A DNA stretch of 54,512 bases from a virus (Duplodnaviria > Heunggongvirae > Uroviricota > Caudoviricetes): the IMG/VR virus record IMGVR_UViG_2529293142_000033, one strand, 5' to 3'. The translations under genes and the position numbers were made by a program. The notes under the pieces were generated by a model. That model saw only the letters and a list, made by a program, of their open reading frames with translations. It was not told the origin of the DNA and searched no databases. Position 1 is the stretch's first letter. Each line of letters begins with the position of its first letter. Below, one piece after another: positions 8,391-34,949 of the stretch.

Positions 8391-8954
8391 ATGAGGCTAA
8401 CCGTGGGTAAGCATCACTGGAAAGTAGAAAAACAGCCTGAGTGGTACGTGAAAGCTGTCAGAAAAACTATCGCGGCGTTGCCGGGAGGTTACGCTGAAGC
8501 TGCTGAGTGGCTGGATGTAACAGAGAACGCTTTATTCAACCGCCTTCGTGCAGATGGCGATCAGATTTTCCCGCTGGGATGGGCAATGATTTTACAGCGC
8601 GCGGCTGGCACTCACTACATTGCGGATGCTGTCGCACAGTCTGCTGGTGGGGTGTTTGTATCGCTTCCTGAACTTGAGGAAGTAGAGAACGCCGATATAA
8701 ACCAGCGCCTGCTGGAAGTCATCGAACAGATCGGGAGTTACTCAAAGCAGATTCGTTCGGCAATCGAAGATGGGGTAGTGGAGCCACACGAGCAGACAGC
8801 AATTAATGATGAGTTGTATCTGTCAATTTCGAAGCTCCAGGAGCATGCAGCACTGGTCTACAAAATCTTCTGCGCTCCAGAAAAGAGTGACGCCCGCGAG
8901 TGTGCAGCTCCGGGCGTCGTGGCGTTTTGTGTCTGTGGAGAAACTAACGCATGA
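8391..8954 (+). CDS. CII-like phage regulatory protein
   Basis: 187-aa ORF directly after cro-like gene; alternative GTG start at 8403. Confidence 0.55.
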   Translation: MRLTVGKHHWKVEKQPEWYVKAVRKTIAALPGGYAEAAEWLDVTENALFNRLRADGDQIFPLGWAMILQRAAGTHYIADAVAQSAGGVFVSLPELEEVENADINQRLLEVIEQIGSYSKQIRSAIEDGVVEPHEQTAINDELYLSISKLQEHAALVYKIFCAPEKSDARECAAPGVVAFCVCGETNA

Positions 8955-9099
8955 ACAGTTTAACGGCAAATAACCGTTTGTCGCAACAGCTGGTGGTCAG
9001 TGTCGCTGAACACCTGTTGTTACGGCATGAATGCAGATTACCAAATCACCTGGCTGTAAGTAACCACAGAGAACTTTACCTGACTGTGGGGGGCGAGTT

Positions 9100-9279
9100 G
9101 TGCAGGAACTTAACCGCTGGTTTCGTGACGGAAGAGGGCTTTATGTCCATGTTATTCGTTGGGAGCCAGAAACACAGCGCGTTATCTATCTTCGCAAAGA
9201 CTACCCGCATGAGTGCTTTAGTCCTTTGTGGAAATTCAGGCGTGATTTTGTTGAGTGTGAAGGACCACCAGCACATTGA
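9100..9279 (+). CDS. possible small protein (59 aa, Trp/Arg-rich)
   Basis: GTG start with gggggg SD 6-7 nt upstream; protein-like translation QELNRWFRDGRGLYVHVIRWEPETQRVIYLRKDYPHECFSPLWKFRRDFVECEGPPAH; frame differs from the listed 383-aa ORF. Confidence 0.35.
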   Translation: MQELNRWFRDGRGLYVHVIRWEPETQRVIYLRKDYPHECFSPLWKFRRDFVECEGPPAH

Positions 9280-9365
9280 TTCTGCCATTCCGGGACGTTA
9301 CACTGTTCAGGCACCTTATAAAACGGGTGCCGGGATTGGCGTCCTGAAATTGATTACTGAGCATA

Positions 9366-9390
9366 ACCGCGCTCATGCGGTTTTTTCGTG
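9366..9390 (+). terminator. rho-independent terminator (tR1-like) upstream of rha
   Basis: ccgcgctcatgcgg hairpin followed by tttttt. Confidence 0.65.
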
Positions 9391-9556
9391 TCATGAGCAT
9401 TGCTACGCCCAAATTATGGTGGGGCGTACAGGGCCGACTTCGGTCGGGCCGGGTTCGGTAGTCTCCGGTAACGCCAACCCTGTACGTCTCACCACCTCTG
9501 TGATTGGCGTCCCATGTGGTGAGTTTTCTAAAAAACTGACTACCGGGGCTGTCACC

Positions 9557-33450: not shown

Positions 33451-34949
33451 CGGTCTCGTTCAGCAATATCCCGTCAAATCTTCGTGTGCCACTGTTCTAC
33501 GTCGAAGTGGACAACTCGATGGCGAACAGCGCTACGGAGACACAGCGCACACTGCTGATTGGTCAGATGACGGCAGAGGGGACCGCCACGGCAGGGACGG
33601 CATACCGCTGTTCGTCGGCCTCCACGGCAGCCGGACTGTGTGGTGAAGGCTCAATGCTGCATACCATGCTGACAGCCTACCTTAAAAACGACAGCTACGG
33701 AGAGACCTGGCTGCTGCCGCTGGCGGATGATGACAGCAGCATGACGACGGCCACGGGCAGCATATCTGTTGACAGTGTGCCGACGGCATCCGGCGTCATT
33801 TACCTGTACATCGCAGGGACCCGTGTTCGCCTGACGGTGAAGTCAACGTACACGCAGTCGGAGATAGCCAGTCTGCTGGCAGCCAGAATTAATGCAACCT
33901 CTGCGCTGCCGGTGATCGCATCGGTGGCCAGCGACGGCACGACCATTGAACTCACCGCCAGAAATGCCGGCGAGGTGGGGAACACCATTGACATCCGGCT
34001 GAATTATTCCGGGTCATCCGGCGGCGAGTCCACCCCGGACGGCCTGACGCTGACCATCACGGCGATGAGCGGTGGCGAAGGTGCGCCGGACCTTGCGGAT
34101 GCGCTCGCCAGTCTGGGTGACCGCACGTTTGATTTCATTGTCCTTGCTTATCCGGACACCACATCGCTCAACGATATGAAGGATTTTCTGTCGGATGACG
34201 AAGGGCGCTGGGCGTGGGACAAACAAATCTACGGTCATGCCTTCACGGCGGCGAGCGGCAGCTACGGCGAGCTGGCGGACAAGGGGGAAAGCCGCAACGA
34301 CCGGCACATGACCATCTGGGGCGTGTATGACGGTCCGAACACTTCGTATGATTATGCTGCCGCGATGGTGGGAGCGCTGGCGCAGTCGGTCCGTAACGAT
34401 CCGGCGAGACCTACGCAGACGCTGTCGGTGTCCGGTGTGCTGGCTCCACCGCTGGCAAGTCGTTTCACCCTGACGGAGCGGAACACGCTTTTGTACAGCG
34501 GCATCTCAACCTTCACGGTGTCAGACGACGATACGGTGACGCTTGAGAACACCATCACCACGTACCAGACCAACAGCTACGGTGCGGCGGACGACAGTTA
34601 CCTGCAGATCGAGACGATGTACACACTGATGTATGTGATGCGCTCCATGAAGACGCAGGTGACGTCGAAGATGGGGCGGATGAAGCTGGCGGACGATGGC
34701 GCGAATATTCCGGCAGGGAGTGCGATTGTCACCCCGTCGATCATCCGGGCCGAACTGATTGCTCAGTTCAACACGCTGGCGAACAACGGCTACGTACAGG
34801 ATGCGGATGCGTTTGCGGAGCAACTGGTGGTTGAGCGTGACAGTGACAACCCGAACCGCGTGAACGTGGTGTGGCCGGGCCGCCTGATGAACCAGTTACG
34901 CATCTTTGCGGTGCGGAACCAGTTCAGGCTGAACAGCAGCAGTGATTAA
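33447..34949 (+). CDS. contractile tail sheath protein (Mu gpL-like)
   Basis: 500 aa; size and position immediately before tube gene; overall pattern consistent with Mu-type sheath. Confidence 0.8.
   Translation: MTVSFSNIPSNLRVPLFYVEVDNSMANSATETQRTLLIGQMTAEGTATAGTAYRCSSASTAAGLCGEGSMLHTMLTAYLKNDSYGETWLLPLADDDSSMTTATGSISVDSVPTASGVIYLYIAGTRVRLTVKSTYTQSEIASLLAARINATSALPVIASVASDGTTIELTARNAGEVGNTIDIRLNYSGSSGGESTPDGLTLTITAMSGGEGAPDLADALASLGDRTFDFIVLAYPDTTSLNDMKDFLSDDEGRWAWDKQIYGHAFTAASGSYGELADKGESRNDRHMTIWGVYDGPNTSYDYAAAMVGALAQSVRNDPARPTQTLSVSGVLAPPLASRFTLTERNTLLYSGISTFTVSDDDTVTLENTITTYQTNSYGAADDSYLQIETMYTLMYVMRSMKTQVTSKMGRMKLADDGANIPAGSAIVTPSIIRAELIAQFNTLANNGYVQDADAFAEQLVVERDSDNPNRVNVVWPGRLMNQLRIFAVRNQFRLNSSSD

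What the first reader, a model, noticed from the sequence alone, without database searches (positions are those of the whole stretch)
8955..9556. Possible small ORF, terminator and structured leader with competing helices upstream of the rha antirepressor
The first 600 nt of the listed 383-aa ORF are unlikely to be coding: an intrinsic terminator (9366-9390) lies inside it. A protein-like 59-aa ORF lies in another frame (9100-9279). Between terminator and rha start, 9419-9434 can pair with 9478-9493 (16 bp, enclosing a UUCG-capped hairpin at 9437-9450), while 9488-9495 can alternatively pair with 9515-9522 followed by UUUUCU. The two pairings are mutually exclusive, which looks like an attenuator or antisense-RNA target controlling antirepressor expression.
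Basis: inference. Interest (0 to 1): 0.6.

Follow-up and report, generated by a model that had tools for sequence, protein, structure and literature searches.

The report
Phage IsrK–C4 antisense RNA module
The stretch in front of the rha gene holds a small DUF4222 protein gene, two known phage small-RNA genes (IsrK and a P1-type C4 antisense RNA) and the C4 target sites on the rha ribosome-binding site; it is an ordinary prophage immunity module that genome annotation usually mislabels as protein.

Summary
The terminator (9365-9386) ends an IsrK-family sRNA (9311-9387; Rfam 60.1 bits, cut-off 50). The "16-bp helix enclosing a UUCG hairpin" is the closing stem of a C4-family antisense RNA (9412-9499; 82.3 bits, cut-off 45).

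C4's hairpin loop b' and single-stranded joint a' are complementary to sites inside IsrK (a1, b1). They are also complementary to sites downstream: a2, and b2, which overlaps the rha Shine-Dalgarno sequence. These three-way complementarities covary across 102 relatives, which carry 60 distinct b' loops.

The competing helix (9488-9495 / 9516-9523) is also conserved, with compensatory changes, and shows a2 in its loop. The U-run after it is not conserved, so it is not a terminator.

The 5' 600 nt of the 383-aa ORF show no coding signature. The 59-aa ORF is a genuine DUF4222 gene.

This is the layout of P1 immI (a1b1-c4-a2b2) and of the Gifsy-1 isrK-orf45-anrP locus, here placed directly before rha. 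The likely mechanism is that C4 blocks rha translation and IsrK acts as a decoy for C4.

Verdict: a new member of a known kind, of modest interest. The by-products are annotation errors and a conserved helix competition that I did not find described.

The parts
8391..8954 (+). Context: YmfL / CII-like regulator gene (187 aa). It ends where the spurious 383-aa ORF begins.
   Evidence: ORF list. Pfam Phage_CP76, E 5e-15. phrog_101 CII-like activator. Annotated ymfL in RefSeq relatives.
8955..9099 (+). Spacer with no coding signature in the frame of the 383-aa ORF.
   Evidence: Variable sites among homologues fall 16/20/14 on codon positions 1/2/3. No Pfam hit for 8951-9300. The alignment with K-12 e14 needs indels of 14, 5 and 20 nt.
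9100..9279 (+). DUF4222 protein gene, 59 aa, GTG start preceded by a GGGGGG Shine-Dalgarno-like run.
   Evidence: Pfam PF13973, E 9.5e-14, profile positions 4-51 of 53. phrog_1343, positions 1-59 of 59, E 1e-36. Variable sites 10/9/40 by codon position in this frame, against 9/40/10 in the 383-aa frame. A 59-aa homologue in K-12 e14 shares 38/59 residues.
9276..9304 (+). Putative IsrK promoter: -35 TTGATT (9276-9281), 17-nt spacer, -10 TACACT (9299-9304), start near 9311.
   Evidence: Read from the sequence. Both hexamers are invariant in 28 distinct upstream regions. The position relative to hairpin 1 matches the Gifsy-1 isrK promoter TTGACA-17-CTATAT, whose activity was shown experimentally. 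Only 8 of 12 consensus matches, so the promoter scan missed it. Inferred, not shown.
9311..9387 (+). IsrK-family sRNA. Hairpin 1 at 9311-9330. Hairpin 2 at 9331-9346 with a1 (UUGGCGU, 9336-9342) in its loop. b1 (GAUUACUGAG, 9352-9361). Intrinsic terminator at 9365-9382 plus U's to 9386.
   Evidence: Rfam RF01394, 60.1 bits (cut-off 50), E 1.8e-11, full-length model. Terminator scan. a1:a' and b1:b' are 94% paired, with 12 of 17 pairs changed on both sides and 0 of 500 shuffles reaching this.
9412..9499 (+). C4-family antisense RNA (mature form predicted about 9418-9496). Closing stem 9417-9433 / 9478-9494. Hairpin 1 at 9434-9447 (UUCG loop). Hairpin 2 at 9448-9469 with the b' loop at 9453-9464. 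a' joint at 9470-9477.
   Evidence: Rfam RF01695, 82.3 bits (cut-off 45), E 1e-15, model positions 1-87 of 87. The MFE fold of 9418-9496 reproduces the model: -47.2 kcal/mol, z -5.0. Helices are 99.7-100% paired, with 8 pairs changed on both sides.
The 5' arm (9488-9495) is the 3' end of the C4 closing stem. The 3' arm is 9516-9523. a2 (UUGGCGU, 9504-9510) sits in the loop.
   Evidence: Conserved in about 90% of 102 relatives as a 7-12 bp helix, with a2 in the loop in 83 of 102. On 43 diverse sequences the full 12-pair structure (helix plus inner stem) is 89.3% paired, 8 of 12 pairs changed on both sides, 0 of 500 shuffles reaching this.
9522..9537 (+). Small third hairpin (AGUUUU / AAAACU).
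   Evidence: MFE of 9497-9565. A hairpin of at least 5 bp occupies this position in 41 of 55 non-redundant relatives, against about 21% of shuffles.
9538..9548 (+). b2 target (GACUACCGGG, 9538-9547), complementary to the C4 b' loop and overlapping the rha Shine-Dalgarno sequence (GGGG, 9545-9548).
   Evidence: Pairing listed. RNAduplex -15.3 kcal/mol. b2:b' is 99.4% paired with 7 of 10 pairs changed on both sides. The b2 3' end lies 7-12 nt before the ATG in most of the 102 relatives.
9557..10102 (+). True Rha-family gene (181 aa), the regulated gene. It is first in a run of overlapping genes (10099-10323, 10320-11138, 11135-11629).
   Evidence: Pfam Phage_pRha at residues 21-106, E 3.6e-31. 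The Shine-Dalgarno sequence, ATG and first codons are conserved in all relatives. ORF overlaps.

Best explanation
Region 9276-9556 is a P1 immI-type antisense-RNA immunity module, homologous to the Gifsy-1 isrK-orf45(STnc1160)-anrP locus. Here it sits in the early-right operon of an e14/lambdoid E. coli prophage, directly in front of rha.

Shown by sequence comparison:
- An IsrK sRNA with its own terminator carries sites a1 and b1.
- About 25 nt downstream lies a C4 antisense RNA. Its hairpin-2 loop (b') and single-stranded joint (a') are complementary to a1/b1 and also to a2/b2 in the rha leader.
- b2 overlaps the rha Shine-Dalgarno sequence.

Inferred mechanism:
1. A constitutive promoter at 9276-9304 makes mostly short IsrK.
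2. Transcripts that read through the terminator, and any transcripts arriving from upstream, carry the C4 precursor.
3. RNase P cuts the tRNA-like precursor (acceptor-like stem followed by ACC) to release stable C4.
4. C4 pairs with a2 and b2 and blocks ribosome binding at rha. Because the genes downstream overlap, this probably also lowers their expression by polarity. Rha, a putative antirepressor or regulator, therefore stays off in the lysogen.
5. IsrK presents the same target sequences and acts as a decoy that titrates C4. A rise in IsrK relative to C4 then turns rha on.

The variable a and b sequences set specificity (heteroimmunity) between related prophages.
For: Identity of the RNAs:
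- Rfam C4 at 82.3 bits and isrK at 60.1 bits, both full-length and above their cut-offs.
- The same adjacent pair occurs in Gifsy-1 itself, upstream of anrP.
- It also occurs in a P1-like Punavirus, upstream of icd-ant. There the isrK model scores 49.5 bits on the region just upstream of c4 (between c4 and the preceding CDS).
- It is present in Stx phages, SfV, P88 and a Yersinia phage.

Structure: the C4 helices are 99.7-100% paired with compensatory changes.

Antisense logic:
- a1:a' plus b1:b' are 94% paired, with 12 of 17 pairs changed on both sides.
- b2:b' is 99.4% paired, with 7 of 10 pairs changed on both sides.
- Across 102 distinct modules from Enterobacterales, Pseudomonas and Endozoicomonas (60 different b' loops), cognate duplexes are far stronger than non-cognate ones. 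The values are b'-b2 -14.05 vs -7.49, b'-b1 -13.44 vs -8.12 and a'-a1 -13.15 vs -7.94 kcal/mol.
- a and b alleles reassort.
- The b2 3' end lies 7-12 nt before the start codon.

RNase P-like features: the closing stem is followed by ACC in 85 of 102 modules.

Published mechanism for relatives:
- c4 RNA blocks ant expression by pairing around the ribosome-binding site and underlies P1/P7 heteroimmunity.
- In Gifsy-1, IsrK expressed in trans activates anrP translation 100-170 fold, and this requires the a1 bases G28 and G31.
- IsrK and STnc1160 are highly expressed in Salmonella lysogens in all conditions tested.

In the window, predicted C4-IsrK duplexes (-15.7 and -15.7 kcal/mol) are at least as strong as C4-mRNA duplexes (-15.3 and -10.5).
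Against: - There are no expression data for this prophage.
- The promoter is a weak consensus match (8 of 12) and is inferred from conservation only.
- Every transcript that yields one C4 also carries one a1b1 copy. The decoy model therefore needs C4 to be much more stable than IsrK, which is untested.
- The Gifsy-1 authors explain their data differently. In their model IsrK opens a cis structure so that a 45-codon ORF overlapping C4 is translated and coupled to anrP.
- The leader alone is predicted to sequester its own Shine-Dalgarno sequence and b2. Mean unpaired probabilities are 0.23 and 0.28, against 0.43 for the whole leader. C4 may therefore not be the only layer of control.
- The window's Rha is not homologous to Gifsy-1 AnrP or to the ant-position ORF6N protein of the P1-like phage L089 (both ORF6N-domain proteins). 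Its antirepressor activity is assumed from family names only.
Confidence: 0.75

Rival explanations
1. Gifsy-1-style control through an upstream ORF. The regulated step is translation starting at AUG 9416-9418, which is buried in the C4 closing stem. IsrK in trans remodels the read-through transcript so that ribosomes load there and run into rha. In this window that ORF is in frame with rha and has no stop, so the product would be a Rha with 47 extra N-terminal residues.
For: - Hershko-Shalev et al. report that orf45 start and stop mutations reduce activation by IsrK, and that IsrK promotes 30S binding at the orf45 ribosome-binding site.
- The AUG is conserved.
- The frame is open into the downstream start codon in all E. 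coli, Salmonella and P1-like copies examined.
- The conserved GGUGGUG arm (9516-9522) mimics the AUGGUGG strand. It could free that AUG by capturing CACCACC.
Against: - Family-wide, the ORF is in frame and open in only 36 of 102 modules. It has a stop before the downstream ATG in 42 of 102, some at codon 3 or 8.
- The in-phase frame is hardly more open than another frame: 41% vs 36% reach 140 nt or more.
- Variable sites in 9311-9556 fall 51/51/48 on codon positions.
- No Shine-Dalgarno sequence precedes AUG 9416.
- The orf45 mutations also alter the C4 closing stem, so the published data do not separate the two models (inference).
- In the published double mutants, restoring a1:a' pairing did not restore repression: 484 fell only to 224 units against a wild-type value of 4. 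This is what is expected if a' must pair with the unmutated a2.
Confidence: 0.15
2. P4-type action. C4 works mainly on transcription: by pairing with a1/b1 and a2/b2 on nascent RNA, it sets termination efficiency at the IsrK terminator or downstream, rather than blocking ribosomes.
For: - b1 (9352-9361) abuts and partly pairs into the base of the terminator hairpin (first fold).
- An intrinsic-terminator-like T-run follows a1b1 in 82 of 102 relatives.
- The Gifsy-1 authors note the analogy with P4, where seqA and seqC flank CI RNA, which causes premature termination.
Against: - b2 consistently overlaps the Shine-Dalgarno sequence at a fixed distance from the ATG. This points to translation as the direct target.
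- No conserved terminator follows a2/b2.
- In Gifsy-1 the transcriptional fusion changed 8-fold but the translational fusion 139-fold.
Confidence: 0.07
3. The leader alone switches between an antiterminator (the 17-bp helix) and a terminator (8-bp helix plus UUUUCU).
For: The two helices exclude each other and both are conserved with covariation. The window has UUUUCU after the second helix.
Against: - The U-run is conserved in only 5 of 55 relatives and belongs to another hairpin.
- The 17-bp helix is the closing stem of a known trans-acting RNA.
- In full-length folds the 17-bp stem always wins and the 8-bp helix is absent.
Confidence: 0.02
4. The long ORF is real. Rha has a long N-terminal extension, as annotated by PGAP and in many phage records.
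For: - The frame is open from 8951.
- RefSeq and GenBank records annotate extended CDSs.
- The translation of 8951-9556 matches the N-terminal profile positions of phrog_821, phrog_995 and phrog_3960. Pfam Phage_ASH matches weakly.
Against: - Codon-position tests show no coding signature in that frame: 16/20/14, 9/40/10 and 51/51/48.
- Another frame (DUF4222) carries the signature.
- Two RNA genes with compensatory base-pair changes occupy the stretch.
- In-frame stops occur in more than half of relatives.
- The Rha domain begins 20 residues after M9557, which has a conserved Shine-Dalgarno sequence.
- The protein-family matches are best explained by repeated mis-annotation of a conserved RNA region.
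Confidence: 0.01

Closest known systems
Bacteriophage P1/P7 immI region: a1 b1 - c4 antisense RNA - a2 b2 - icd - ant (Citron & Schuster 1990, as cited)
   Same: - Same RNA family (RF01695).
- Same order of elements.
- a'/b' are complementary to an upstream and a downstream site pair.
- The downstream pair lies at the ribosome-binding site of the next gene.
- Allelic a/b sequences fit the heteroimmunity concept.
- The P1-like phage L089 shows the same isrK-like leader, the same a2 hairpin (CCACCGC/GCGGTGG) and even the same first codons (MATIPT).
   Different: - There is no icd gene. The target ribosome-binding site belongs directly to a Rha-family gene.
- The host element is a lambdoid/e14-type prophage, and the module lies in the early-right operon ahead of the replication genes rather than in a separate immI operon.
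- The regulated protein is not homologous to the ant-position ORF6N protein of the P1-like phage L089.
Salmonella Gifsy-1 isrK - orf45 (STnc1160) - anrP - isrJ locus (Hershko-Shalev et al. 2016, PMC4825925)
   Same: - Rfam finds isrK and C4 adjacent and upstream of the regulated gene in Gifsy-1, exactly as here.
- Homologous promoter position, terminator, a1/b1, a'/b', a2 hairpin and b2 at the Shine-Dalgarno sequence.
- This is the only experimentally dissected IsrK system.
   Different: - In Gifsy-1 the module sits after the late-gene antiterminator Q gene, not in the early operon.
- AnrP is an ORF6N protein unrelated to this Rha.
- orf45 ends in an ATGA overlap with anrP, whereas here the equivalent frame runs into rha without a stop.
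- There is no isrJ homologue here.
Satellite phage P4 immunity: seqA - CI RNA (seqB) - seqC (as summarised)
   Same: A processed small RNA lies between two complementary target sites on the same transcript. The translated C4 region weakly matches Pfam Phage_ASH, the P4 Ash family.
   Different: As summarised by the Gifsy-1 authors, P4 CI acts by premature transcription termination on the replication operon. Here the conserved target overlaps a Shine-Dalgarno sequence. Homology to P4 CI was not tested directly.
APSE phages of Hamiltonella: c4 plus isrK sRNAs next to BRO-N / Rha genes (Rouil et al. 2020, PMC7313666)
   Same: The co-occurrence of the two Rfam families in one phage has already been reported, together with a'/b' matches upstream of the adjacent gene.
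   Different: That report is descriptive only. It gives no covariation analysis and does not link IsrK to the a1b1 sites.

Membership tests
C4 antisense RNA (Rfam RF01695; P1/P7 c4) | Covariance-model score above the curated cut-off over the full model | tested here: met
   82.3 bits against a cut-off of 45, E 1e-15, model positions 1-87 of 87.
C4 antisense RNA (Rfam RF01695; P1/P7 c4) | Long closing stem enclosing two hairpins, supported by compensatory changes | tested here: met
   The closing stem is 99.7% paired with 4 pairs changed on both sides. Hairpin 1 is 100% paired with 4 of 5 pairs changed on both sides. The MFE fold agrees.
C4 antisense RNA (Rfam RF01695; P1/P7 c4) | a' and b' complementary to a2/b2 downstream, at the ribosome-binding site of the next gene | tested here: met
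   b2 (9538-9547) overlaps the Shine-Dalgarno sequence and is 99.4% paired with 7 of 10 pairs changed on both sides. Cognate vs non-cognate duplexes are -14.05 vs -7.49 kcal/mol. The spacing to the ATG is 7-12 nt. The a2 result is weaker: 80% paired, because MAFFT misplaces a 3-nt indel, and -9.98 vs -7.84 kcal/mol.
C4 antisense RNA (Rfam RF01695; P1/P7 c4) | Second copy of the targets (a1 b1) upstream of c4 on the same strand | tested here: met
   a1 is at 9336-9342 and b1 at 9352-9361. They are 94% paired, with 12 of 17 pairs changed on both sides. The Rfam c4-a1b1 model scores only 21.7 bits here (cut-off 46.7) but 48.1 bits on the Gifsy-1 homologue.
C4 antisense RNA (Rfam RF01695; P1/P7 c4) | Processed from a longer precursor by RNase P to about 77 nt | not testable with these tools
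   Only consistent features can be seen: an acceptor-like stem followed by ACC in 85 of 102 relatives. The RNase P dependence of P1 C4 is taken from my own knowledge (Hartmann et al. 1995), because the paper could not be opened.
C4 antisense RNA (Rfam RF01695; P1/P7 c4) | Controls an icd-ant operon | tested here: not met
   The downstream gene is a Phage_pRha protein with no icd in between. Across the family the downstream gene varies (icd, rha, ORF6N, a 'derepression' protein). This looks like a property of P1 rather than of the family.
IsrK sRNA (Rfam RF01394; Gifsy-1) | Covariance-model score above the cut-off | tested here: met
   60.1 bits against a cut-off of 50, model positions 1-77 of 77.
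IsrK sRNA (Rfam RF01394; Gifsy-1) | Ends in a Rho-independent terminator that is partly read through into the downstream gene | tested here: inconclusive
   The terminator is present (7-bp stem, 6 U's). Read-through cannot be measured. It is implied because there is no room for a promoter between 9387 and 9412.
IsrK sRNA (Rfam RF01394; Gifsy-1) | Own promoter immediately upstream | tested here: inconclusive
   TTGATT-17-TACACT is invariant in 28 distinct sequences and positioned like the Gifsy-1 promoter. It matches the consensus at only 8 of 12 positions.
IsrK sRNA (Rfam RF01394; Gifsy-1) | Middle hairpin pairs with the 3' part of the downstream 'orf45' RNA (helix b-I) | tested here: met
   This is the a1:a' pairing, 97.5% paired with 5 of 7 pairs changed on both sides. 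It corresponds to the published G28/C162 and G31/C159 pairs.
IsrK sRNA (Rfam RF01394; Gifsy-1) | Hfq binding and activation of the downstream gene in trans | not testable with these tools
   This needs experiments.
   At least 5 T in the 8 nt after the hairpin occurs in only 5 of 55 non-redundant relatives.

The most novel reading that the evidence does not exclude
The chain of overlapping, individually covarying helices is a conserved fate switch for the read-through transcript. The chain consists of the C4 closing stem, the a2 hairpin that reuses its 3' strand, and a third small hairpin that abuts b2. In one fold the RNA is an RNase P substrate and yields a C4 repressor. In the other fold the CACCACC tail is captured by GGUGGUG, so C4 is not released, a2 is displayed in a loop, and the AUG at the C4 5' end and/or the rha ribosome-binding site become available. 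Each transcript would then become either repressor or messenger. I found no description of this helix competition for P1, P4 or Gifsy-1 in the papers I could read.
Probability: 0.25. Interest if true: 0.55.

Novelty: new member of a known kind. Interest (0 to 1): 0.3.

Why it matters
The biology is not new. C4-type antisense immunity has been known since 1990 and IsrK since 2008-2016, and both Rfam models score above their cut-offs here. Four practical points follow.

1. Annotation. The region, or part of it, matches DNA in 3169 of 5426 complete E. coli genomes (639 carry ≥80% of it). In the annotated records I inspected it is annotated as an N-terminally extended 'Rha family' or 'antirepressor' protein. 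These spurious N-termini have entered protein-family profiles (phrog_821 and others, probably Pfam Phage_ASH).

2. Unification. The comparison shows that IsrK is the lambdoid counterpart of the P1 a1b1 leader, and that Gifsy-1 'orf45' is a C4 RNA. Recent reviews still treat these as separate systems. Several published Gifsy-1 mutant results fit a simpler decoy (anti-antisense) model.

3. Specificity. The a and b sites form a large, reassorting set of alleles: 60 b' loops in 102 modules. Up to three cassettes of different specificity occur in tandem. This could govern cross-talk between co-resident prophages.

4. The conserved a2 hairpin, which competes with the C4 closing stem, is a testable structural feature.

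Tried and rejected
- Coding reading of 8951-9556. Rejected by codon-position tests and by in-frame stops in relatives.

- Conserved translation from AUG 9416. It looked striking at first, because the frame is open and in phase with rha in all E. coli, Salmonella and P1-like copies, and a 3-nt indel preserves the frame. The wider sample removed the signal: 36 of 102 are in frame and open, 42 of 102 have an earlier stop, and another frame is almost as open.

- Terminator reading of the second helix. Rejected because the U-run is not conserved.

- A conserved Shine-Dalgarno-sequestering structure in the processed leader. RNAalifold on 44 leaders kept only the 3-bp stem around a2. Per-sequence folds do predict low Shine-Dalgarno accessibility, so this stays open.

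- Homology between the regulated proteins. The window's Rha does not match Gifsy-1 AnrP, and the ant-position protein of P1-like phage L089, like AnrP, hits Pfam ORF6N rather than Phage_pRha. The RNA module is therefore portable between different downstream genes.

- MAFFT alignment A1. It misaligns the window's a2-hairpin 3' arm by 3 nt, so that helix was scored on a second alignment (A2) and by anchor-based scripts.

- Literature. The original P1 papers (Lobocka 2004; Hartmann 1995) are not held in the library. Statements about RNase P processing rest on my own knowledge.

- Tools not used. The large protein searches, structure prediction and fold search were not needed for an RNA finding.
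Full report
**What is in the sequence.**
The window around the finding has the immunity-region layout of an e14/lambdoid E. coli prophage:
- a LexA-like repressor on the minus strand;
- a Cro-like gene and a YmfL/CII-like gene (8391-8954);
- the region in question;
- a Rha-family gene followed by overlapping genes that include a replication protein.

- A terminator with stem 9365-9382 and T's to 9386.
- A 59-aa ORF at 9100-9279.
- A 17-bp helix, 9417-9433 with 9478-9494, that encloses a UUCG hairpin at 9434-9447.
- An 8-bp alternative helix, 9488-9495 with 9516-9523, followed by UUUUCU.

The rha ATG is at 9557.

**Identity.**
A scan against Rfam gave two full-length hits above the curated cut-offs:
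- isrK (RF01394) at 9311-9387, 60.1 bits against a cut-off of 50.
- C4 antisense RNA (RF01695) at 9412-9499, 82.3 bits against a cut-off of 45.

The terminator is therefore the 3' end of IsrK. Folding agrees: 9418-9496 folds into the model structure at -47.2 kcal/mol (z -5.0), and the whole 9311-9565 stretch has z -4.4.

**Target sites.**
Reading the sequence against the P1 paradigm shows two complementary site sets:
- The C4 hairpin-2 loop b' (9453-9464) is complementary to b1 (9352-9361, inside IsrK) and to b2 (9538-9547, overlapping the rha Shine-Dalgarno GGGG at 9545-9548).
- The single-stranded joint a' (9470-9477) is complementary to a1 (9336-9342, in the loop of IsrK hairpin 2) and to a2 (9504-9510).

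Predicted duplex energies in the window are -15.7 (b'-b1), -15.3 (b'-b2), -15.7 (a'-a1) and -10.5 (a'-a2) kcal/mol.

**Comparative evidence, close relatives.**
The region, or part of it, matches DNA in 3169 of 5426 complete E. coli genomes; 639 genomes carry at least 80% of it. Eighty IMG/VR loci whose Rha is at least 90% identical carry regulatory regions that are only 69-85% identical. These gave 28 distinct upstream sequences.

On an 18-sequence alignment:
- The internal structure of IsrK plus C4 is 93.5% paired.
- a1:a' and b1:b' are 94.1% paired, with 12 of 17 pairs changed on both sides.
- b2:b' is 99.4% paired, with 7 of 10 pairs changed on both sides.

No shuffle out of 500 reached the observed covariation scores, and sliding the partners by 1-3 columns abolishes the signal.

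**Comparative evidence, wider family.**
A pattern scan of one genome per species returned 120 loci from Enterobacterales, Pseudomonas, Endozoicomonas and others. From these and the phage loci I kept 102 distinct modules, with 60 different b' loops.

- Cognate duplexes are much stronger than non-cognate ones. The values are b'-b2 -14.05 vs -7.49, b'-b1 -13.44 vs -8.12 and a'-a1 -13.15 vs -7.94 kcal/mol.
- The a and b alleles reassort.
- The b2 3' end lies 7-12 nt before the start codon in most modules.

**Relation to known systems.**
The same isrK-C4 pair sits in Gifsy-1 upstream of anrP, with isrK at 34240-34316 and C4 at 34131-34214 on the minus strand. The published 'orf45'/STnc1160 is therefore a C4 RNA.

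In a P1-like Punavirus the isrK model scores 49.5 bits on the region just upstream of c4 (between c4 and the preceding CDS), followed by icd and ant. IsrK is therefore the counterpart of the P1 a1b1 leader.

The pair also occurs in Stx phages, SfV, Ayreon, the P2-like phage P88 and a Yersinia phage. It has been noted in APSE phages. Weinberg et al. 2010 list both the c4 and c4-a1b1 motifs.

The regulated genes differ between systems: Rha here, ORF6N proteins in Gifsy-1 and the P1-like phage, and a 'derepression' protein in P88. The Shine-Dalgarno sequence, the ATG and the first few codons travel with the RNA module.

**Mechanism.**
The elements and their complementarities are shown. The way they act is inferred from P1 and Gifsy-1.
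- In P1/P7, c4 RNA pairs around the ribosome-binding site and prevents antirepressor synthesis. Sequence differences in the pairing sites give heteroimmunity.
- In Gifsy-1, most isrK transcripts terminate and some read through. Short IsrK in trans activates anrP translation more than 100-fold, and this requires the a1 bases.
- IsrK and STnc1160 are abundant in Salmonella lysogens under all conditions tested.

I propose the following for this window:
1. C4 is released from read-through transcripts. RNase P is the likely enzyme, since the stem is followed by ACC in 85 of 102 modules.
2. C4 blocks the rha ribosome-binding site through b2 and a2.
3. IsrK acts as a decoy for C4.

Several Gifsy-1 results fit this reading. 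For example, the a1/a' double mutants restore the cis helix but not repression (224 units against 4 in wild type). That is expected if a' must also match a2. This reinterpretation is my inference.

Because rha and the next three ORFs overlap, repression may extend by polarity to the replication genes. This too is inference.

**The competing helix.**
- About 90% of the 102 modules have a 7-12 bp helix between the last bases of C4 (CACCACC) and a downstream GGUGGUG. a2 lies in its loop in 83 of 102.
- On 43 diverse sequences the full 12-pair structure (helix plus a 3-bp inner stem around a2) is 89.3% paired, with 8 of 12 pairs changed on both sides. Examples are CCUGCCA/UGGCAGG, CCGCCUCC/GGAGGCGG and CCACCGC/GCGGUGG. 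No shuffle out of 500 reached this.
- It is not a terminator. A U-run follows it in only 5 of 55 non-redundant relatives. In the window the U's belong to a third small hairpin (9522-9527 with 9532-9537). That hairpin is itself enriched in the family, reaching at least 5 bp in 41 of 55 relatives against about 21% of shuffles.
- In thermodynamic folds of the full precursor the 17-bp closing stem wins.

What the competition does is unknown. It may partition transcripts between C4 production and messenger function.

**Coding questions.**
The 383-aa ORF is an artefact upstream of 9557.
- Variable sites fall 16/20/14 (8955-9099), 9/40/10 (9100-9276) and 51/51/48 (9311-9556) on its codon positions.
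- The DUF4222 frame shows 10/9/40. It matches Pfam DUF4222 and phrog_1343 end to end.
- The ORF that starts at the C4 AUG (9416) is open and in frame with rha in all close relatives. Family-wide this holds in only 36 of 102 modules, and early stops occur in 42 of 102.
- Public records nevertheless annotate extended Rha or 'antirepressor' proteins. The translated RNA region matches the N-terminal part of several PHROG profiles and, weakly, Pfam Phage_ASH.

**Verdict.**
The feature is a standard IsrK/C4 antisense immunity module, a new member of a known kind, attached here to rha. The value of this analysis lies in three things:
- correcting the annotation;
- linking the IsrK and P1 c4 literatures;
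- the conserved helix competition, which I did not find described.

Noticed in passing
window 8951-9279; L211 3323-3681 (E. coli K-12 NC_000913.3 1203822-1204180): K-12 e14 'ymfM' (cell division inhibitor, SfiC) is annotated in the same frame and from the same start (MNSLT...) as the window's spurious long ORF. The frame under purifying selection is instead an overlapping, unannotated 59-aa DUF4222 ORF. In K-12 it has a TTG start at 1204001-1204180 and shares 38/59 residues with the window's copy; differences fall 19/16/38 by codon position. The published ymfM work cloned the whole ORF without a frame test, so the filamentation factor may be the DUF4222 protein.
   Followed up: partly
window 8951-9556 (translated): Protein-family libraries appear to contain translated RNA. 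phrog_821 profile positions 2-143, and also phrog_995, phrog_3960 and phrog_6928, match the translation of the isrK/C4 region. Pfam PF10554 (Phage_ASH) matches the translated C4 RNA (E 2e-5, just below its cut-off). RefSeq PGAP and many GenBank phage records extend the Rha CDS over both RNA genes.
   Followed up: partly
L081 and L082 (rha starts at about 793, 1653 and 2501); L025 (2501 and 3367): Some IMG/VR prophage contigs carry two or three tandem isrK-C4-rha cassettes, each with a different a/b specificity. In the third cassette of L081 the C4 loop (CUAUGUUG) does not match its own b2 (CACCAAAG), so it is a recombinant that should escape its own C4 at the b site.
   Followed up: partly
L105, L111, L115, L118, L123, L126, L206, L209 (between the IsrK terminator and C4): A subset of Enterobacterales modules has an insert of about 50 nt containing a TATAAT-like element directly upstream of C4. 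This suggests a separate C4 promoter that the window lacks.
   Followed up: no
window 9557-9580 and the equivalent positions in L085, L088, L089: The Shine-Dalgarno sequence, the ATG and the first 6-7 codons (M-A/T-T-I/L/V-P-T/A) are shared by otherwise unrelated downstream genes (rha, P1-like icd, the SfV/Ayreon gene). The recombination boundary of the RNA module therefore lies inside the coding sequence.
   Followed up: no
window 16114-16420: A cluster of four tRNA genes lies on the + strand within the prophage.
   Followed up: no
L087 149-447 (Yersinia phage vB_YpM_41): There is a strong ryfA RNA hit (134.6 bits) about 1 kb upstream of, and on the opposite strand to, that phage's isrK-C4 module.
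   Followed up: no
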